DNA of 8,958 nucleotides. Source: a virus. Taxonomy: Duplodnaviria > Heunggongvirae > Uroviricota > Caudoviricetes. This document shows positions 1 to 8,957 of this stretch, one piece after another. The position numbers and the translations under genes are program-made. The notes beneath the pieces were generated by a model, which was not told the DNA's origin, did no database searches, and worked only from the letters and a program-made list of their open reading frames with translations. The stretch lies in the IMG/VR virus record IMGVR_UViG_2703718848_000007, one strand, 5' to 3'. Numbering within the stretch: the stretch's first letter is position 1; each line of letters opens with the position of its first letter.

Positions 1-20
1 CCCGCCTCGCCCGCCCGCTT
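1..20. other. partial cos site (cohesive-end sequence runs off the left edge of the window)
   Basis: Reverse complement of 1-11 is GGCGAGGCGGG, the first 11 nt of the P2/P4 19-nt cohesive end GGCGAGGCGGGGAAAGCAC as I recall it. Position next to the variable region downstream of A fits P2 architecture. Confidence 0.45.
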
Positions 21-136
21 CATGGGTCGATTTCAATGCAGTTGCATGAGTCCATTAAAAGCACATCAGTACTGGCAAAATAAAGATGCAGAAATTAATC
101 CTTGAAGATGCAAAAAAATGCAACGCAACGCACCTC

Positions 137-835
137 TTACGGCTTCGTCAATACAGACTTAAATTTATCATTAAATGGCTTAATTTGAGGTAATGTTAAT
201 TTTTTTACAAATGTTTTTGTCGTTGTGTGAACTACGACGCTACCTTCTCCAAGAGTATTCCCCTGACATTCTTTTACGAACCCCTCATCAGTTACTGATG
301 CGGTAATGCTCTCTGGAATTATAAGCGTCAATATATCACCATAGTCTTCTAAAACATGCGGTAACTTACCATCTATAAGCTTATGCGGGTTTACATAAAT
401 ATCTAAGGATTTATTGTTAGAAAATCGCAACCTCACCGACTGAATGTTACTCCTAACTTGTCTTTTGTTTGTTATAGTTATTGATATCGCTGTATTTTTG
501 ATACTCGGCAAGTGCAATGATGGAATTAACACCATACTATATCGAATGTCAATCTCCTCTGAATTTTCCTTTGCCGAACGGAGTGCTAACAACAATGATA
601 TCGCAGCAGCAGAAAATGCTCCCAACCCAGAAACCCAAGTACCCAACATAGTTAAAAAAGGTATTGTAATTGATTGGAATTTAGTGTCCCCATTCAAACC
701 AACACCACTATAGCCCACATAACACCCTATAAAAAAGAATAGACAAGCCGTTATTAAAACAAAAAATAAATGAATAGAGCTTATCCTTTTAAATTTCAAC
801 AAAAAATCTTTCAAAATAATTTTACATCTCTTCAT
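137..835 (-). CDS. two-helix membrane protein with about 145-aa C-terminal domain predicted cytoplasmic; unknown family (cargo gene 2)
   Basis: 232-codon ORF in clearly AT-rich DNA. AGGA lies 7 nt upstream of the ATG at 835. Translation has a strongly basic N-terminus (MKRCKIILKDFLLKFKR), two hydrophobic helices (IHLFFVLITACLFFFIGCYVGY and ITIPFLTMLGTWVSGLGAFSAAAISLLLAL) and a beta-rich soluble C-terminal domain. No family recognised by eye. Confidence 0.7.
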   Translation of the reverse strand: MKRCKIILKDFLLKFKRISSIHLFFVLITACLFFFIGCYVGYSGVGLNGDTKFQSITIPFLTMLGTWVSGLGAFSAAAISLLLALRSAKENSEEIDIRYSMVLIPSLHLPSIKNTAISITITNKRQVRSNIQSVRLRFSNNKSLDIYVNPHKLIDGKLPHVLEDYGDILTLIIPESITASVTDEGFVKECQGNTLGEGSVVVHTTTKTFVKKLTLPQIKPFNDKFKSVLTKP

Positions 836-892
836 TTTCTAATCCTGTATTAAAATCAGACACCAAGCTTTATTAATCACTATTTTTATGAT

Positions 893-917
893 TGCCAGCA
901 TAAATACTGGCATTTTT
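893..917 (+). terminator. candidate intrinsic terminator on the plus strand (antisense to the cargo genes)
   Basis: Stem TGCCAG (893-898) and CTGGCA (907-912) with 8-nt loop, followed directly by TTTTTATTATT. On the minus strand the same hairpin has no U-tract after it. Confidence 0.35.
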
Positions 918-933
918 ATTATTCTGGCAGAGT

Positions 934-1665
934 TCACTCACTTATAATTGATACAACCTCACCTGTTTCTACATTGACACGCGCAGCAATCGTCTGTTTC
1001 ACCACTCCGCCATAAGCATTAGTTCCGCGAAACGTGGTTTTCACAATGGCATGCGGGTCTTTATTCAAAACCAGATGATATACCGTTGACACATGTTTAT
1101 AAGATGAATCATCGTTCATATTATCTTTAATTAGTTTTTCCAAAGGACGATAAGAACCATCCCAACCACTAAAATTACTCTGAAATGTATCAAGATTGAT
1201 TTTATTGTTTAGTGAATTCGGGTCATTTTCATAATCATTAAAGCACCACCCAAGAACATCACCGAGTTTCAACTCATCATCTTTGGTAAATGTATACTCA
1301 CTCATGCAGGCATAAAACGCATCTGACGCGGTGGCTGGAACTTCCTTAAAATCAATGTAACTATTCACAATATCGTGTCGTGTTTTCTTTGACTCGTTCC
1401 GATATTCCTTGAGTGTTTTTTCACCATATTCGAATGTTTTTTGGACTTTGTGTTCTGCAACGGTTGATGTTTCAGTTTTAGCAACTGGCTGGCTTTTTTC
1501 TGTTGGATAGAGTATTGAACCAATTATGCCCAATACAAAACCTCCTCCGAGATAAACCGCACTTGCACGTTTGCGGCTTGGCATTCGCACCAGTGATGGT
1601 TTGATTAACCCGATGAAAAAAGCAACGAAAAAAGCGAGTGATAGAAAAGCGATTACAGTATCCAT
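934..1665 (-). CDS. two-helix membrane protein with about 190-aa C-terminal domain predicted periplasmic; unknown family (cargo gene 1)
   Basis: The ORF track extends to 1689, but that codon is GTG. The in-frame ATG at 1665 has AAGGAT about 5 nt upstream, so 243 aa is preferred. Helices TVIAFLSLAFFVAFFIGLI and VYLGGGFVLGIIGSILY are separated by a basic loop KPSLVRMPSRKRASA (positive-inside rule puts the loop in the cytoplasm). The C-terminal domain has two Cys (FYACMSEY, LGWCFNDY). DNA is AT-rich. Confidence 0.7.
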   Translation of the reverse strand: MDTVIAFLSLAFFVAFFIGLIKPSLVRMPSRKRASAVYLGGGFVLGIIGSILYPTEKSQPVAKTETSTVAEHKVQKTFEYGEKTLKEYRNESKKTRHDIVNSYIDFKEVPATASDAFYACMSEYTFTKDDELKLGDVLGWCFNDYENDPNSLNNKINLDTFQSNFSGWDGSYRPLEKLIKDNMNDDSSYKHVSTVYHLVLNKDPHAIVKTTFRGTNAYGGVVKQTIAARVNVETGEVVSIISE

Positions 1666-2100: not shown

Positions 2101-2556
2101 TTATCCAAGCCACCCGTTTTGCTGTGCACGCCCCATCTGTTCATCTGAATAGTGCCATGCTCCATCCGTGGCAACCATTGCCCCGCCAGACATCCCCGTC
2201 TCTGGTTCATACATAACAGCAAGGCCGAGTTGATGCATAATTTCATGATTAATTCTGAATACCAGACCACGCTCACTAAGTTCTTTCCAGTTCACAATCT
2301 CATATGCGCCTGTATTAAGCCGCTCAATACTTAGCAAGACATAATCTTCCAGCCAGTCTGACAGGTCAGTAACATCTGTTATCCGGGCTTCAACCTTTCG
2401 CCCCGTATACACACCCTGCACCCATTCATGCAAAATCAACGTGTCCCCGCGCTCATAATTACGGTCATTTTTCCGAAACTCTGCGCGTTTCTTTCCTTCC
2501 AGCACAAGGTCGAAATATTTTGCGTGCAGCTTTACCTCGTGAATTTTTGCCATCAT
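2101..2556 (-). CDS. small protein with N-terminal ASCH/PUA-like (DUF3850-type) domain and a C-terminal segment carrying an HExxH motif
   Basis: Start ATG at 2556 overlaps the A stop codon (ATGA, plus 2553-2556), with GGAG 6-7 nt upstream. N-terminus KIHEVKLHAKYFDLVLEGKKRAEFRKNDRNYERGD matches the pattern I associate with DUF3850. C-terminal part contains NHEIMHQLG. The ORF track start at 2589 would overlap A by 37 nt and is less likely. Confidence 0.6.
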   Translation of the reverse strand: MMAKIHEVKLHAKYFDLVLEGKKRAEFRKNDRNYERGDTLILHEWVQGVYTGRKVEARITDVTDLSDWLEDYVLLSIERLNTGAYEIVNWKELSERGLVFRINHEIMHQLGLAVMYEPETGMSGGAMVATDGAWHYSDEQMGRAQQNGWLG

Positions 2557-4838
2557 GTCCACTCCATTACTGTTGAAAATCCCGGCCATTCATCAGCGAC
2601 CGGATACGTGAATTTTTTCCCGTCATAATTTACGGTTGCCCCACGCGCCAGCGCCTCAATCTCCCATCGCTGAGGCCTGATACCGTTCTGAGCAAGGTCA
2701 ACGCGGATACGGGTAATTTGCATTCGTTCCGGCCGGGTCAGTCTGGCCGATGGCGCTATTTCATGTGGTTTTAACGGGCTTCCGTTTCTTTGCTGGCGAT
2801 TTGGTCTTCTCAGTCCGTGTTTTAATGCTCCCCTGAGCGCCCTCACAACCTCCGGGTCATTCCATTCGATAACACCGTCATCTACCAGATTAAGCACTGC
2901 TGCGGCGTGTTCAGAAGGTGTGGGAGCCGGTAACGAAGCATCACCACCGGTGAGTTTTCCACAGTTATTGACAGGACTCCGAGGCGCGGCGATGCCGCTT
3001 TTTAAAGTCAAAGGCTCAACGACCGGAACTTTCGGCACAATGCGCCAATCCGTGGTTCTGGTGATATGAATATGACGCGCGCCGAGATGCGGTGCGTAAA
3101 TGCCGACCACTCTCTCGACTTCTTCCTCGTACTCGTTAACGTCATCCGACGGGCTACGGGCGACTCTGACAGTCTGACAATCGCGCGGAACATTTGCCCC
3201 ACCCTGCGCGCTGATATACAACGCAAAATCACCACTGTCTGCGGCGGCGCGTGCAGCCTCGACGCGCTCGTCAAACTCATCAGCAATGCTGACGCCGCGC
3301 GGCAATTTGCGTAGTTCACGGTAAGCCCCCATTGTCGGCAGGCCAACCGTTTTAAATTGCGGGATGCGCCACGTTGACGCCCATGCGGTAACAGCCGCTG
3401 CAGTGTCTTTCAGCGGCCTGCCGGTGTCGTTATCGAGCTGACCATCCAGTGCATAGCCGTCGATGTTTTTTGAAATGTATTTCGCGATATATCCCGCAGC
3501 ACCGCCCCGGTTAAGGTGTTTTGCCTGAAAACGGTTTCGCGCAGCTCCTCTTTCGTCTCCATCCTCTTTGAGCGCGTAGCGACGCATGATTTCGATAATC
3601 TGGTTACGCTGGCGTGGATTACAAAAAAGCATCATATGCCAGTGCGGCGTTCCGTCGTGGTGTGGCTCGACGACACGCAAACCGTAGACCTGTAAATCAT
3701 TATCCTTGAATGCCGTGCGCATCAGGCTCCAGATGCGGCAGAGATAACGCTGCGCATCCTTTGGATTAAATGCCTCATCGTTCCAGCCGTGATTAAGCTG
3801 AACGGTTTTACTTTCGCCTTTTCTGACCTGACGTGTCGGGTGATACTTTGACGGCGCGGTCAGCGTGATAAACATCCCCACATCACCCTCTGCGGCGGCG
3901 TAACGCTCAATACCGGCAATGGTGTTCATCAGCTCCATCCGGCGAATTTCAGGATTAGAAATACTGCCCATCACCTTACTGATAAGGTCGATGCGCTCGC
4001 CGGTTTCCCTGTTTTCGAGGTCACACGATTTAAGAAATTCCAGATTTGCCTGGCGGCGCGCACGCACATCACGAATGGCATGTTTACTGGCATAAGGAGA
4101 ACGGTCTTTATTGACCTCCCCGACAGCAATCAGTAACGCCTCATGCCAGCGCATACGCTGGCCTTTAAGCTGATGAGTCCACCACTCATCGTTAAACAGG
4201 CGGGCAATGGCAGAATATGCCTGCCTCGTGGTCATCTGCCCTTTACGGTATTTTTTCCAGTAAAGCGGGGAAATATTGAAAGCACGTGCAGCGCCAGCAA
4301 CATGACCATAGAGGTGAGCCTGCGCCTCATCCGTAAACAGCGATTCTTTTTCGCCATGTGCATCAACCCAGGCATCGCAGAGTTCCTCATACATCATGAA
4401 AAGCTGCGATGAGATACGGGCAGCAAACTTTTTCAGCTCCTTGTCATTCATCCCCGGCAGGCGCGCATACTGGTCGCGCTCTGCCAGAAACAGCAACGAC
4501 GCGTCGGTGTTCATTTCATGGCGCTGATTCACACGCTCAATGCGCGGCCATAAACGACGCTGAAAAGTGGATGTGAGGAAATAAAACCCGTGCACCGGGC
4601 TTTTATTGCGCCGGATGTAGTCATAGCGTGAAGTAAACAGCGAGCGCAAAAAGTAAGGCAGACGGTTAATCGTGGATAAAACCCCTTGCACCTGACGCAT
4701 CTCGTCACGTGTAAGGGGTCTTTCGCGCCCGACAGCCTCGCGTGGCGCGTTCCATGCATAAGCACCGGTAAACGCCTTACCGGTGCCTGCGGCAAATGCT
4801 GACGGAGGGACAAAACGCCCGGAGGCTTTAACGGCCAT
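2553..4838 (-). CDS. A: rolling-circle replication initiator (HUH endonuclease), phage P2 gpA family
   Basis: Translation contains the HUH-type motif PHWHMMLF and the paired-tyrosine motif GYIAKYISK. Starting at the in-frame ATG at 4838 gives 761 aa, matching the P2 gpA length as I recall it; the codon at 4880 used by the ORF track is TTG. Confidence 0.9.
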   Translation of the reverse strand: MAVKASGRFVPPSAFAAGTGKAFTGAYAWNAPREAVGRERPLTRDEMRQVQGVLSTINRLPYFLRSLFTSRYDYIRRNKSPVHGFYFLTSTFQRRLWPRIERVNQRHEMNTDASLLFLAERDQYARLPGMNDKELKKFAARISSQLFMMYEELCDAWVDAHGEKESLFTDEAQAHLYGHVAGAARAFNISPLYWKKYRKGQMTTRQAYSAIARLFNDEWWTHQLKGQRMRWHEALLIAVGEVNKDRSPYASKHAIRDVRARRQANLEFLKSCDLENRETGERIDLISKVMGSISNPEIRRMELMNTIAGIERYAAAEGDVGMFITLTAPSKYHPTRQVRKGESKTVQLNHGWNDEAFNPKDAQRYLCRIWSLMRTAFKDNDLQVYGLRVVEPHHDGTPHWHMMLFCNPRQRNQIIEIMRRYALKEDGDERGAARNRFQAKHLNRGGAAGYIAKYISKNIDGYALDGQLDNDTGRPLKDTAAAVTAWASTWRIPQFKTVGLPTMGAYRELRKLPRGVSIADEFDERVEAARAAADSGDFALYISAQGGANVPRDCQTVRVARSPSDDVNEYEEEVERVVGIYAPHLGARHIHITRTTDWRIVPKVPVVEPLTLKSGIAAPRSPVNNCGKLTGGDASLPAPTPSEHAAAVLNLVDDGVIEWNDPEVVRALRGALKHGLRRPNRQQRNGSPLKPHEIAPSARLTRPERMQITRIRVDLAQNGIRPQRWEIEALARGATVNYDGKKFTYPVADEWPGFSTVMEWT

Positions 4839-5103
4839 ATGAGCCAAAAGCCTCTGAACAACGCCTGCTGAGTTGCTCAACCTGCGCGTTTAAATCAGCA
4901 AAAGACTTTGCGCTTCCGGTCAGAATATCGTGATGCATCAGGCCGGAAACGAGCTGGCTTAATTTCGGATAATAACCAACCACCGCCAGCCATTCCTGAC
5001 CGGCGTTTTTACCGCTTTCCGCTCTCTTTTTCTCGTGGAGAATAAACTGAAAGCTGTCACTGGTAACGACATAACGTTCGCCAATTTCAATACGAATACT
5101 CAT
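4828..5103 (-). CDS. P2 orf83-like early protein, function unknown
   Basis: 91-aa ORF; its ATG overlaps the stop of the upstream gene (ATGA at 5100-5103) and its end overlaps the A start by 11 nt. Position immediately upstream of A as in P2. Confidence 0.7.
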   Translation of the reverse strand: MSIRIEIGERYVVTSDSFQFILHEKKRAESGKNAGQEWLAVVGYYPKLSQLVSGLMHHDILTGSAKSFADLNAQVEQLSRRCSEAFGSYGR

Positions 5104-7403: not shown

Positions 7404-8417
7404 ATGGCAATCAAAAAACTCGATGATGGTCGATATGAAGTGGACATCCGCCCTACTGGACGTAACGGAAAACGCATCCGTAGGAAGTTTGATAAGAAAA
7501 GCGAAGCTGTCGCTTTCGAAAAATACACGTTGTACAACCACCACAATAAAGAATGGCTATCAAAACCAACAGACAAACGACGTCTGTCGGAACTGACACA
7601 GATCTGGTGGGATTTAAAGGGTAAACACGAAGAGCATGGGAAATCTAATCTTGGAAAAATTGAAATCTTCACAAAAATAACGAATGACCCATGCGCATTT
7701 CAAATCACGAAATCCCTTATCAGCCAGTACTGCGCCACCCGAAGAAGTCAGGGTATTAAACCTTCGAGTATCAATCGTGATTTAACATGTATTAGCGGCA
7801 TGTTTACAGCCCTGATTGAAGCGGAGTTATTCTTTGGTGAGCACCCTATCAGAGGGACAAAGAGGCTTAAGGAGGAAAAACCAGAAACAGGCTATCTCAC
7901 ACAGGAAGAAATTGCCTTACTGCTTGCAGCACTTGACGGCGACAATAAAAAGATTGCGATTCTTTGCCTGAGTACAGGAGCACGTTGGGGAGAAGCAGCT
8001 CGTTTGAAAGCAGAAAATATCATCCATAACCGCGTCACGTTTGTTAAAACGAAAACAAACAAACCACGCACCGTCCCGATTTCAGAGGCTGTTGCCAAAA
8101 TGATCGCGGATAACAAACGAGGTTTTTTATTCCCTGATGCTGATTACCCTCGCTTCAGACGAACAATGAAAGCAATAAAACCGGATTTGCCAATGGGGCA
8201 AGCCACACATGCACTAAGGCACAGCTTTGCCACTCATTTCATGATTAATGGAGGAAGTATTATCACGCTACAACGGATACTAGGTCACACGCGGATTGAG
8301 CAAACTATGGTTTACGCTCATTTTGCGCCAGAGTACCTTCAGGACGCCATTTCTCTTAATCCGCTAAGAGGTGGTACTGAGGCCGAGAGTGTCCACACAG
8401 TGTCCACAGTAGAGTAA
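7404..8417 (+). CDS. int: tyrosine recombinase integrase, P2 Int family
   Basis: 337 aa. C-terminal catalytic signature HALRHSFATHF ... LGHTRIEQTMVYAHF (His-x-x-Arg box and Tyr nucleophile). GGAGGG 7 nt upstream of the ATG. Adjacent to the att core. Confidence 0.9.
   Translation: MAIKKLDDGRYEVDIRPTGRNGKRIRRKFDKKSEAVAFEKYTLYNHHNKEWLSKPTDKRRLSELTQIWWDLKGKHEEHGKSNLGKIEIFTKITNDPCAFQITKSLISQYCATRRSQGIKPSSINRDLTCISGMFTALIEAELFFGEHPIRGTKRLKEEKPETGYLTQEEIALLLAALDGDNKKIAILCLSTGARWGEAARLKAENIIHNRVTFVKTKTNKPRTVPISEAVAKMIADNKRGFLFPDADYPRFRRTMKAIKPDLPMGQATHALRHSFATHFMINGGSIITLQRILGHTRIEQTMVYAHFAPEYLQDAISLNPLRGGTEAESVHTVSTVE
8390..8408. repeat. two direct repeats of TGTCCACA (TGTGGACA on the other strand), probable Int arm-type binding sites
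   Basis: Copies at 8390-8397 and 8401-8408, 11 bp apart, inside the last codons of int (encoding HTVSTV). TGTGGACA is the P2 Int arm-site consensus as I recall it. Confidence 0.5.
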
Positions 8418-8681: not shown

Positions 8682-8957
8682 TCACTCTCCACATTTGAAT
8701 GTCAGACGAGCGACGCCATGTAATCCTGCACCTTCTGTCTTCAGGTCAACTATCTGCATTTTTTTGCCCTGAGTAACACAGAAATGGGCTGCATCATTTT
8801 TTACTATATTTTCTGCACCAGATATTCTGCCCCTGGCTAAAGAAGCTTCGGCTTCGGTGTAGTATTGGTTATCGAGTTTACGCTGAATATTACTTTTATA
8901 TGCAAGACCAAATTTACCGATACTTGTCTCATCATTATGCACAGCACAACCAGACAT
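8682..8957 (-). CDS. partial ORF in non-phage flanking DNA, unknown product; N-terminus may lie beyond the window
   Basis: Open frame runs to the window edge; LSGC-like context at the N-terminus could be a lipobox if translation starts further upstream. No family recognised. Confidence 0.4.
   Translation of the reverse strand: MSGCAVHNDETSIGKFGLAYKSNIQRKLDNQYYTEAEASLARGRISGAENIVKNDAAHFCVTQGKKMQIVDLKTEGAGLHGVARLTFKCGE

What the first reader, a model, noticed from the sequence alone, without database searches (positions are those of the whole stretch)
137..835. Cargo gene 2: basic N-terminus, two TM helices, beta-rich cytoplasmic C-terminal domain of unknown family
The N-terminus carries six Lys/Arg in 17 residues. 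After two long hydrophobic helices with a short loop comes a domain rich in alternating hydrophobic/polar runs (ISITITNKRQV, SVVVHTTTKTF) ending in a basic tail. It is too large and too structured to be a holin. It could be an effector or a partner-binding module.
Basis: inference. Interest (0 to 1): 0.6.

Follow-up and report, generated by a model that had tools for sequence, protein, structure and literature searches.

The report
Phage-borne membrane protein of unknown function
This is a real gene of a P2-type prophage that encodes an inner-membrane protein with a cytoplasmic immunoglobulin-like domain; its uncharacterised family occupies the swappable accessory slots of several unrelated temperate phages, so it is a plausible but untested anti-phage gene that does not need its neighbour gene.

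Summary
Window 137-835 (minus strand) is a genuine 232-aa gene: dN/dS is 0.30 and the chance of an open frame this long is about 6e-9. The protein has a basic amphipathic N-helix, two TM helices, a cytoplasmic seven-to-eight-strand Ig-like beta-sandwich and a basic C-terminal helix (AlphaFold pLDDT 89.7).

It belongs to PHROG 16957, function unknown. It has no Pfam, NCBIfam or PADLOC match. The family has 278 cluster representatives of about 170-230 aa. The conserved core is one TM helix (invariant Trp, a stripe of small residues) followed by the sandwich.

The gene lies in the P2 gpA-to-cos variable hotspot. Its neighbour Orf97 is often upstream in P2/186-like phages, but not always. Members are the sole hotspot gene in a Serratia prophage. 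They fill a present/absent/replaced slot in the head module of Pseudomonas phages (30 of 79 loci). They follow the lysis cassette of a lambdoid prophage and sit beside TIR and Septu-like candidate defence genes.

The "partner of gene 1" reading is therefore weak. The "self-contained effector" reading is plausible but untested. My best guess is an oligomerising membrane sensor-effector used in phage-phage conflict. Interest is moderate.

The parts
137..835 (-). Complete CDS of the 232-aa protein (stop codon 137-139); member of PHROG 16957 / 23429
   Evidence: ORF list; PHROG hits of 3.4e-14 and 2e-70; dN/dS 0.30; family of 278 representatives
843..846 (-). AGGA Shine-Dalgarno, 7-nt spacer to the ATG
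   Evidence: Upstream sequence read
785..832 (-). Residues 2-17: basic amphipathic N-terminal helix (7 K/R), present only in this subfamily; predicted to lie on the cytoplasmic membrane face
   Evidence: Model helix 2-17; hydrophobic moment 1.28; absent from other subfamilies
701..775 (-). Residues 21-45: TM1, with the conserved G37-xxx-G41 motif; missing in about half of the wider family
   Evidence: Hydropathy; G37 92% and G41 96% conserved; 1-TM members
668..700 (-). Residues 46-56: short periplasmic turn (GLNGDTKFQSI); too short for a pore loop or selectivity filter
   Evidence: no TxGYG motif
581..667 (-). Residues 57-85: TM2, the most conserved part of the family. Motif M-x-G-x-W-V-S-G, W67 invariant, G65 and A76 99%, V77 93%, and a stripe of small residues at 65/69/73/76/80/84
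   Evidence: Column statistics on 71 sequences
554..580 (-). Residues 86-94: basic/acidic junction continuing the TM2 helix into the cytoplasm; E93 is 98% conserved
   Evidence: positive-inside statistics
200..553 (-). Residues 95-212: cytoplasmic Ig-like beta-sandwich domain
338..364 (-). Residues 158-166: conserved L-P-x-x-L-x-x-x-G loop (P159 and G166 93%); also the right-hand boundary of the recombination patch
146..193 (-). Residues 215-230: basic amphipathic C-terminal helix
   Evidence: Model; hydrophobic moment 1.45
361..930 (.). Mosaic patch: 70-93% identical to phage 9W and E. coli H10, inside flanks that are 98-100% identical. It covers codons 1 to about 158 plus the whole spacer up to the Orf97 stop
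   Evidence: Sliding identity; dS 0.75 in codons 91-160 against 0.04 in codons 161-232 and 0.019 in Orf97
893..912 (+). 6-bp hairpin (TGCCAG-N8-CTGGCA) between Orf97 and the gene; followed by a T-run on the plus strand only
934..1665 (-). Neighbour gene 1, Orf97-like, 243 aa from the conserved Met (the ORF can be extended to a GTG at 1689); context only, not shown to be part of the same unit

Best explanation
SHOWN: the ORF is a real, selected gene in the gpA-to-cos variable hotspot of a P2-type prophage. Its product is an inner-membrane protein with N-in/C-in topology: a basic in-plane helix, a TM hairpin, a cytoplasmic Ig-like sandwich and a C-terminal amphipathic helix. It belongs to an uncharacterised family (PHROG 16957) whose conserved core is one TM helix with an invariant Trp and a continuous face of small residues, followed by the sandwich. 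Members behave as autonomous accessory ('moron') genes in hypervariable slots of at least four kinds of element. INFERRED: the protein acts alone in conflict between phages. The small-residue (glycine-zipper-like) TM helices would pack into a homo-oligomer. The faster-evolving, recombining cytoplasmic sandwich would be the recognition module for a component of an invading phage. Recognition would change the TM bundle so that the membrane leaks or depolarises, aborting the infection. In that case it would be a one-protein sensor plus membrane effector.
For: Real gene. Location: Phage_GPA 6e-123 at 2553-4880 and DUF3850/ASCH Orf91, with portal and terminase just beyond in homologous prophages. 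This is the locus that Rousset et al. showed to be a hotspot carrying old, tin and other defence systems (PMC9122126). AT-rich cargo: 34% GC against about 52% in gpA. Structure: pLDDT 89.7. Topology: in 70 of 79 one-TM members K/R lie after the helix (3.5 against 0.7), and 83 of 91 two-TM members fit N-in/C-in. TM conservation and small-residue stripe. Variable sensor-like part: the mosaic patch and dS 0.75 in the first strands of the sandwich, and only 20-25% identity between subtypes that share the TM motif. Autonomy: sole hotspot gene in Serratia, and no Orf97. Accessory status: in Pseudomonas-type phages the site between the DnaT_2-like and scaffold genes is empty in 22 loci, otherwise filled in 27, and holds a family member of several subtypes in 30 of 79. 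In a lambdoid prophage the member sits after lysozyme and spanin. Defence neighbours: a PDC-S35-like TIR protein (9e-71) with a Phd/ParE pair, and a PDC-M01A/B Septu-like pair. Architectural precedents for channel or pore effectors with a cytoplasmic domain: Foldseek places KirBac channels first (E 7e-4, about 230 aligned columns); Hailong HalA and Rip1 are described in PMC13434031.
Confidence: 0.4

Rival explanations
1. Non-lethal exclusion or host modulation. The membrane-anchored cytoplasmic sandwich binds a host inner-membrane machine (an injection route such as a PTS permease, or a pilus or secretion ATPase platform) or an incoming phage protein. This blocks DNA entry or another early step without killing the cell, as T4 Imm, P22 SieA and HK97 gp15 do. 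The conserved TM helix would be the contact with a conserved host membrane protein.
For: It is an inner-membrane accessory gene of temperate phages in moron positions. The TM helix is far more conserved than the soluble domain across hosts from Escherichia to Pseudomonas-type phages. Co-transcription with lytic-cycle genes would suit exclusion during the phage's own growth.
Against: Only about 2-11 residues are exposed to the periplasm, so direct contact with an injecting tail is unlikely. No PHROG annotated as superinfection exclusion is hit by any of 71 members. A host partner conserved across such distant hosts is not obvious.
Confidence: 0.25
2. Two-gene unit with Orf97. Orf97 (two TM helices, probably a periplasmic C-terminal domain) and this protein (cytoplasmic domain) form a trans-membrane complex, one sensing and the other acting, at least in P2/186-like phages.
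For: Within P2/186-like elements the adjacency is strong. All six distinct phages with a member in the phage collection have Orf97 just upstream or nearby, and so do 10 of 11 P2-like viral contigs. In E. coli complete genomes, three mutually 20-25%-identical subtypes (6 + 7 + 29 genomes) can be compared with 84 genomes that have Orf97. Both genes are on the same strand, no recognisable promoter lies between them, and the two soluble domains are predicted on opposite sides of the membrane.
Against: Members work without it in many places. Orf97 stands alone in phage 186 and in Rousset's catalogue, or precedes four unrelated genes. Spacers of 83 to over 400 bp show no translational coupling. Divergence is discordant and the recombination patch stops at the Orf97 stop codon, which fits Orf97 serving as a homology arm for cassette exchange. 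The TM motif is equally conserved in members that have no Orf97.
Confidence: 0.17
3. A function unrelated to defence: lysogenic conversion of host membrane physiology, or a non-essential helper in the phage's own lytic cycle, such as lysis timing or membrane tethering of an assembly step.
For: In the Pseudomonas-type phages the position is inside the late head operon with a 4-nt spacing. In a lambdoid prophage it lies next to the lysis cassette. The N-in/C-in two-TM topology is the same as that of class II holins (my own knowledge of holin classes). P2 hotspots do hold non-defence cargo.
Against: The gene is dispensable: the slot is empty in 22 of 79 closely related phages, and members were found in at most 42 of 5,426 complete E. 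coli genomes. It shows rapid allelic diversification and has defence-gene neighbours. It is not located in the P2 lysis cassette.
Confidence: 0.15
4. Not a functional gene: a chance ORF or a decaying remnant.
For: Annotation is inconsistent: 193 aa against 232 aa in related records. No promoter was recognised.
Against: dN/dS 0.30; open-frame probability 6e-9; full-length homologues in many genera; confident fold.
Confidence: 0.01

Closest known systems
PHROG 16957 (and its C-terminal fragment family PHROG 23429), phage proteins of unknown function
   Same: This is direct family membership. The window protein scores 3.4e-14 over residues 23-219, and all 71 diverse relatives hit it (best 2.3e-81).
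   Different: The PHROG carries no function, structure or context description. The topology, fold, conserved TM motif and slot behaviour reported here are new descriptions, not new biology proven.
Inward-rectifier K+ channels (KirBac3.1, Kir2/4/6/7, GIRK2)
Archaeal type IV pilins / archaellins (PDB 8fk7, 9eq7, 5tfy) and FlaF/FlaG
   Different: No class III signal peptide is evident, and the topology is predicted to be the opposite (domain cytoplasmic). The proteins are bacterial and phage-borne and sit in accessory slots. The sequence match is not significant.
Single-protein or channel-type membrane effectors of anti-phage systems: Rip1, Hailong HalA, CBASS Cap15 (two TM + beta-barrel)
   Same: This is what it may work like. 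Rip1 is a prophage-encoded single protein that senses a phage protein ring and forms a pore. HalA is a homotetrameric channel with a cytoplasmic crown (PMC13434031). Cap15 pairs two TM helices with a beta-rich ligand-binding domain (my own knowledge; cited in PMC9122126).
TM proteins of validated P2/P4 hotspot systems (AC1 2TM + 1TM + TIR, P4 Gop, hydrolase + 3TM, RT-nitrilase + 1TM, RexB-like)
   Same: They share the genomic niche (cos-proximal hotspot) and are small TM proteins (PMC9122126 Table S2).
   Different: They are unrelated in sequence: family-HMM scores are 1.8 bits or less and BLASTP E is 1.9 or higher. There is no TIR, hydrolase or RT gene here.
Class II holins
   Same: Two TM helices with N-in/C-in topology, and phage-encoded.
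   Different: The protein is 232 aa with a folded 120-residue cytoplasmic domain. It lies outside the lysis cassette, is dispensable, and its TM helix is conserved across very different phages. Typical holin size and location are from my own knowledge.

Membership tests
PHROG 16957 | Significant match to the family HMM over most of its length | tested here: met
   3.4e-14 over residues 23-219 of 232; 71 of 71 relatives match
Kir / KirBac inward-rectifier channels (Pfam IRK, IRK_C) | Pore helix and K+ selectivity filter (TxGYG) between TM1 and TM2 | tested here: not met
   The inter-TM segment is 11 residues by hydropathy and 2 in the model; no T-x-G-[YF]-G motif
Kir / KirBac inward-rectifier channels (Pfam IRK, IRK_C) | Sequence match to the IRK / IRK_C profiles | tested here: not met
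   No such Pfam hit at E up to 1 for the protein, or at E up to 0.01 for 71 relatives
Kir / KirBac inward-rectifier channels (Pfam IRK, IRK_C) | Slide helix, two TM helices and a cytoplasmic Ig-like domain in one chain | tested here: met
   Model elements; Foldseek full-length alignment to KirBac3.1. This holds only for the two-TM half of the family
Kir / KirBac inward-rectifier channels (Pfam IRK, IRK_C) | Homotetramer with a central conduction path | not testable with these tools
   Only monomer prediction was available
CBASS Cap15-type (S-2TM-beta) effectors | Encoded in an operon with a CD-NTase | tested here: not met
   The neighbours are Orf97, a 68-aa ORF, Orf91 and gpA on one side and cos on the other. 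None of the sampled contexts shows a cyclase
CBASS Cap15-type (S-2TM-beta) effectors | Match to CBASS effector profiles or to the Cap15 beta-barrel structure | tested here: not met
Rousset 2TM + 1TM + TIR system (phage AC1) | Homology of the two TM proteins and presence of a TIR gene | tested here: not met
   HMM and BLASTP comparisons are negative; no TIR gene in the window
Rousset 'hp + hp + hp' (3HP) P2-hotspot system | Homology to its three soluble proteins (336, 353 and 227 aa) | tested here: not met
   The sequences in Table S2A are larger soluble proteins that look unrelated to the window's three small genes on reading; no formal alignment was run. No PADLOC hit
Archaeal type IV pilin / archaellin | Class III signal peptide, with the globular domain outside the cell | tested here: not met
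   One-TM members have acidic N-tails and basic residues after the helix (70 of 79), which predicts the domain is inside. The sequence match to 8fk7 is not significant (E 0.042)
Known superinfection-exclusion families (Imm, SieA/SieB, RexB and others, as represented in PHROGs) | Sequence match to an annotated exclusion family | tested here: not met
   Only PHROGs of unknown function are hit by the protein (at E up to 1) and by 71 relatives (at E up to 1e-3); RexB-like is negative
Class II holin | Small (about 70-150 aa) two-TM protein encoded in the lysis cassette and required for lysis | tested here: not met
   232 aa with a folded cytoplasmic domain; located in the gpA-to-cos hotspot; dispensable. 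Requirement for lysis itself was not testable
Anti-phage defence gene (functional class) | Confers resistance to phage when expressed | not testable with these tools
   Only contextual evidence exists: hotspot location, slot behaviour, defence neighbours

The most novel reading that the evidence does not exclude
The family is a new class of one-protein immune module. It would be a filter-less, Kir-like or MscS-like homo-oligomeric membrane channel, whose conserved glycine-zipper helix forms the pore and whose fast-evolving cytoplasmic Ig-like domain directly recognises a protein of a competing phage and gates membrane depolarisation. It would spread as a plug-in cassette among hypervariable slots of unrelated temperate phages (the P2/186 hotspot, the head module of Pseudomonas phages, the post-lysis site of lambdoid prophages) and among chromosomal defence islands.
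Probability: 0.22. Interest if true: 0.7.

Novelty: new variant of a known kind. Interest (0 to 1): 0.4.

Why it matters
If the family is antiviral, it would add a very compact (about 180-230 aa), self-contained membrane sensor-effector to the known repertoire. It offers a confident structural model, a short list of near-invariant residues to mutate (G65, W67, A76, V77, E93, P159, G166), and natural allelic series whose exchanged block (the first strands of the sandwich) points to where specificity lies. The work also shows that a site inside the head module of about 56-kb Pseudomonas-type phages is a present/absent/replaced slot comparable to the P2 hotspot. That slot could be mined for further accessory genes. 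Finally, it corrects the reading of this locus: the conserved neighbour Orf97 looks like a separate unit and a recombination arm, not an obligate partner.

Tried and rejected
- **Cap15-like CBASS effector** (my first idea from two TM helices plus a beta-rich domain): rejected. There is no cyclase, no PADLOC hit and no structural match.
- **The validated 'three hypothetical proteins' system of Rousset et al.:** rejected after reading Table S2A; its proteins are larger and soluble.
- **The AC1 2TM + 1TM + TIR system, Gop, RexB-like and other hotspot TM proteins:** no similarity.
- **True Kir channel:** rejected. There is no P-loop or filter, no Pfam hit, and half the family has one TM helix.
- **Archaeal pilin homology:** it gave the top hit by two methods, but the sequence match is not significant and the predicted topology is opposite.
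- **Core head-assembly gene in the Pseudomonas-type phages:** rejected by the slot survey.
- **Searches that gave nothing:**
  - The word-index homology search found only close E. coli relatives.
  - The search for related loci with the 71-sequence alignment failed for lack of a conserved stretch, and the genome scan gave only 3 loci.
  - The afdb50 fold library was unavailable.
  - Rfam and tRNA scans were empty.
  - Literature searches for orf97 and for the RefSeq accessions found nothing relevant.
  - The sequence motifs were absent from the Vassallo supplements, and no supplement was held for the 2026 NAR paper. The Hailong paper itself was not held.
- **Promoter and terminator scans:** inconclusive.
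- **Alternative inserts of the Pseudomonas-phage slot:** they were small and diverse, only plus-strand ORFs were examined, and I did not pursue them.
Full report
**1. What the window is**

The window is the early half of a P2-type (Peduovirus) prophage.
- The integrase is at 7404-8417 (+).
- A 775-aa replication protein at 2553-4880 (-) matches Pfam Phage_GPA at 6e-123.
- A DUF3850/ASCH Orf91-like gene is at 2101-2589 (-).
- GC content falls from about 52% in gpA to 32-38% over the first ~1,250 bases.
- In homologous prophages and phages (E. coli H10, phage 9W, Peduovirus P22H4) the portal and terminase genes lie just beyond the window's left end.
- The first bases of the window carry the GC-rich cos-proximal sequence that also appears in P2 hotspot fragments cloned by Rousset et al..

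The finding's ORF is therefore the last gene before cos. It lies in the gpA-to-Q region that Rousset et al. (PMC9122126) described as a hotspot of genetic variation holding old, tin and other anti-phage systems, and also non-defence cargo.

**2. Observation check**

The ORF at 137-835 (-) is 232 aa. It starts at an ATG preceded by AGGA with a 7-nt spacer.
- The N-terminus has seven, not six, Lys/Arg in 17 residues.
- Two hydrophobic segments (21-45 and 57-85) flank an 11-residue loop.
- The quoted beta-like strings and the basic tail are all there.
- In this composition a 232-codon open frame has probability about 6e-9.
- Against the 85%-identical allele of phage 9W, dN/dS is 0.30 overall and 0.29 in the N-terminal extension.
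- No Rfam family or tRNA overlaps the region.

The ORF is a translated gene under purifying selection. RefSeq's 193-aa annotation in a related genome would, by my arithmetic, begin inside TM1. TM1 is conserved in the family, so the long form is preferred.

**3. Family**

Pfam, NCBIfam and PADLOC give nothing for this protein. PHROGs gives two families of unknown function: 23429 (the C-terminal half, 2e-70) and 16957 (3.4e-14 over residues 23-219).
- A word-index search found only close E. coli relatives.
- A 232-aa protein at the same position in E. coli AR_0081 is 25-27% identical with E = 1e-12. Its own relatives occur in Citrobacter, Enterobacter and Serratia.
- A profile of both groups, scored against 1.84 billion representatives, found 278 proteins at E up to 1e-3 and 52 at E up to 1e-10. 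Nearly all are 170-230 aa and matched end to end, and none is a fusion to another domain.
- All 71 aligned members hit PHROG 16957. None hits Pfam above noise or any PADLOC model.

**4. Anatomy**

With the 71-sequence alignment AlphaFold gives a confident model (pLDDT 89.7, pTM 0.73). The elements are helix 2-17, helix 20-48, a two-residue break, helix 51-90, a sandwich of seven to eight strands (95-212) with two short helices, and helix 215-230.

The strongest conservation is in the second TM helix:
- W67 is 100% conserved; G65 and A76 are 99%; V77 is 93%.
- Positions 65, 69, 73, 76, 80 and 84 are almost always small residues, forming a continuous glycine-zipper-like face.
- TM1 carries G37-xxx-G41.
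- Outside the membrane only E93, P159, G166 and a few hydrophobic positions are well conserved.

About half of the retrieved relatives lack TM1. In these, the tail before the helix is short and acidic (0.7 K/R, 1.8 D/E), and the 15 residues after it are basic (3.5 K/R). This holds in 70 of 79 members. Of the two-TM members, 83 of 91 fit N-in/C-in. The basic N-terminal helix is peculiar to the window's subfamily.

**5. Fold comparisons**

- Foldseek on the whole chain puts KirBac3.1 and other Kir channels first (E 7e-4 to 3e-3, about 230 aligned columns, TM-score about 0.37).
- A profile search of PDB sequences has no significant hit; the best is again 8fk7 at E 0.042.

The Kir likeness is one of layout: in-plane helix, two TM helices, cytoplasmic Ig-like domain. 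There is no pore loop or TxGYG filter and no Pfam IRK match, so the protein is not a Kir channel. Cap15, my first idea, did not appear.

**6. Is it a partner of gene 1 (Orf97)?**

*Evidence for linkage*
- In the phage collection all six distinct phages with a family member (P22H4, 9W, P24A7b, S164, BIS20, PHB48) have Orf97 just upstream or nearby.
- 10 of 11 P2/186-like viral contigs with a member have Orf97 about 100 bp upstream.
- Two 186-like metagenomic loci have Orf97 at 77-78% identity next to members that are only about 20% identical to the window protein.
- Among 5,426 complete E. coli genomes Orf97 is in 84. Three mutually very divergent member subtypes are in 6, 7 and 29 genomes. Adjacency was verified only in the loci I sampled.

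*Evidence against an obligate pair*
- The member is the only gene between gpA and portal in a Serratia prophage.
- It follows gpA directly in Citrobacter. It also follows a SocA/Panacea pair, DinI, or a truncated gpA in other elements.
- 17 of 28 viral-contig loci have no gpA, portal or Orf97 at all.
- Orf97 is the last gene before cos in phage 186. Rousset's Table S5B lists it as a stand-alone unit with 210 occurrences.
- In E. coli it precedes four unrelated proteins of 198-429 aa.
- Spacers range from 83 to over 400 bp.
- The window differs from 9W and H10 in one sharply bounded patch, coordinates about 361-930 (70-93% identity inside flanks of 98-100%). The patch comprises the spacer and codons 1 to about 158 of the finding's gene but none of Orf97. 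dS is 0.75 in codons 91-160, against 0.04 in codons 161-232 and 0.019 in Orf97.

The simplest reading is that Orf97 is a conserved gene at the inner edge of a swappable slot and serves as a homology arm. PHROG 16957 alleles are that slot's commonest occupants. I leave about 17% for real cooperation.

**7. Behaviour elsewhere**

- **Pseudomonas-type phage contigs.** In two groups of high-GC phage contigs the member lies inside the head module. It comes after portal (DUF4055), a Mu F-like protein and a DnaT_2-like protein, and before scaffold and major capsid (Gp13-like in one group, P22-coat-like in the other). One group is related to P. syringae phages Aurca01 and Cruim01.
- **Slot survey.** I fetched 80 loci by the flanking DnaT_2-like gene (83-100% identical); 79 had both flanks. 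The site was empty in 22 (89-172 bp), held other sequence in 27, and held a family member of several subtypes in 30. The gene is therefore accessory there too, not a core head gene. Very divergent members could hide among the 27.
- **Lambdoid-type prophage.** A one-TM member follows lysozyme and a DUF2514 spanin and precedes the terminase, the position bor has in lambda.
- **Chromosomal island.** On a chromosome from marine sediment another member sits beside a TIR protein that matches PADLOC candidate PDC-S35 (9e-71), with a Phd/ParE pair nearby.
- **Degraded P2-like element.** The member is followed by a PDC-M01A/B (Septu-like) pair.

**8. Mechanism**

*Shown:* a real gene, with the topology, fold, conserved TM face, variable and recombining sandwich, autonomy and accessory-slot behaviour described above.

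*Inferred:* the protein homo-oligomerises through the small-residue face of the conserved helix. The cytoplasmic sandwich recognises something made by another phage. The output is membrane leakage or depolarisation that aborts infection. Precedents for this logic are Rip1, a prophage-encoded single protein that is both sensor and pore, and Hailong HalA, a tetrameric channel with a cytoplasmic crown, as summarised in PMC13434031.

*Against:*
- No member has ever been tested.
- Only 3 of 8 further P2-hotspot systems protected in Rousset's assays.
- Only 15-32% of unknown P2 hotspot proteins are predicted antiviral (PMC13586616).
- I found no promoter.
- In the Pseudomonas phages the gene starts 4 nt after a late gene, which suggests expression during lytic growth.

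*Rivals:* non-lethal exclusion or modulation of a host membrane machine (0.25), a pair with Orf97 (0.17), and a non-defence role (0.15).

**9. Novelty and verdict**

The gene belongs to a catalogued but wholly uncharacterised phage family. Its locus type appears in Rousset's tables as 'DUF3850/ASCH + hypothetical x3'. I found no paper that treats it. If it is antiviral, it is a new variant of a known kind: small membrane effectors carried in phage hotspots. Its architecture has no characterised counterpart. For now it is a well-described candidate, not a discovery. I score interest at 0.40.

Noticed in passing
window 934-1665 (-), ORF extendable to a GTG at 1689: Orf97-like gene (PHROG 3403, unknown function; no Pfam, NCBIfam or PADLOC hit). 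It has two hydrophobic segments separated by a basic loop (RMPSRKRAS), so its roughly 180-residue C-terminal domain is probably periplasmic. It is 77-98% conserved across P2/186-like phages, is orf97 of phage 186, has 44%- and 32%-identical relatives in Vibrio phage VHML and a Helicobacter prophage, and is present in 84 of 5,426 complete E. coli genomes. It is always followed by a variable slot.
   Followed up: partly
window 361-930: A sharply bounded recombination patch (70-93% identity within flanks of 98-100%) relative to phage 9W and E. coli H10. One breakpoint lies at the Orf97 stop codon. The other lies at the conserved L-P-x-x-L-x-x-x-G motif inside the finding's gene.
   Followed up: yes
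window 893-912: A hairpin (TGCCAG-N8-CTGGCA) in the spacer. It has a T-run only on the plus strand, which is antisense to both cargo genes. It could stop transcription entering from the cos/portal side; its role was not resolved.
   Followed up: partly
L002 4137-4718 (E. coli H10, WP_187655781.1): RefSeq annotates the orthologue as 193 aa. By my arithmetic that form starts inside TM1. GenBank phage 9W annotates 232 aa. This is probably a start-site mis-annotation in several RefSeq records.
   Followed up: partly
L061-L140 (viral contigs related to Pseudomonas phages Aurca01/Cruim01), between the DnaT_2-like and scaffold genes: A hypervariable insertion slot inside the head-morphogenesis module: empty in 22, occupied by PHROG 16957 members in 30 and by other short inserts in 27 of 79 loci. 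The other inserts were not identified.
   Followed up: partly
L003 3099-3881 (E. coli APEC O78); L027 1654-2328; L028 1800-2396; L030 1057-2346: Four unrelated proteins occupy the slot after Orf97 in other E. coli prophages. One is a 260-aa protein with a single C-terminal hydrophobic tail. Another (198 aa, L028) has an FRG-domain protein beyond it, where other loci have the portal gene. None was analysed.
   Followed up: no
window 2101-2589 (-): The Orf91-like protein here is 162 aa with DUF3850/ASCH plus a C-terminal DUF7415. P2's own Orf91, as cloned by Rousset et al., is 109 aa with a different C-terminus.
   Followed up: no
window 1-60: The GC-rich sequence cccgcctcgcccgcccgcttca... closely resembles the cos-proximal stretch seen in the P2 hotspot fragments cloned by Rousset et al. 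The window therefore starts at or next to cos.
   Followed up: partly
L141 6951-7847 and L022 7026-9534: Family members sit next to a TIR protein matching PADLOC candidate PDC-S35 (9e-71) and next to a PDC-M01A/B (Septu-like ATPase plus partner) pair, respectively.
   Followed up: partly
window 8682-8957 (-): A 91-aa ORF beyond the integrase and the presumed attachment site is probably a host gene flanking the prophage. It was not examined.
   Followed up: no
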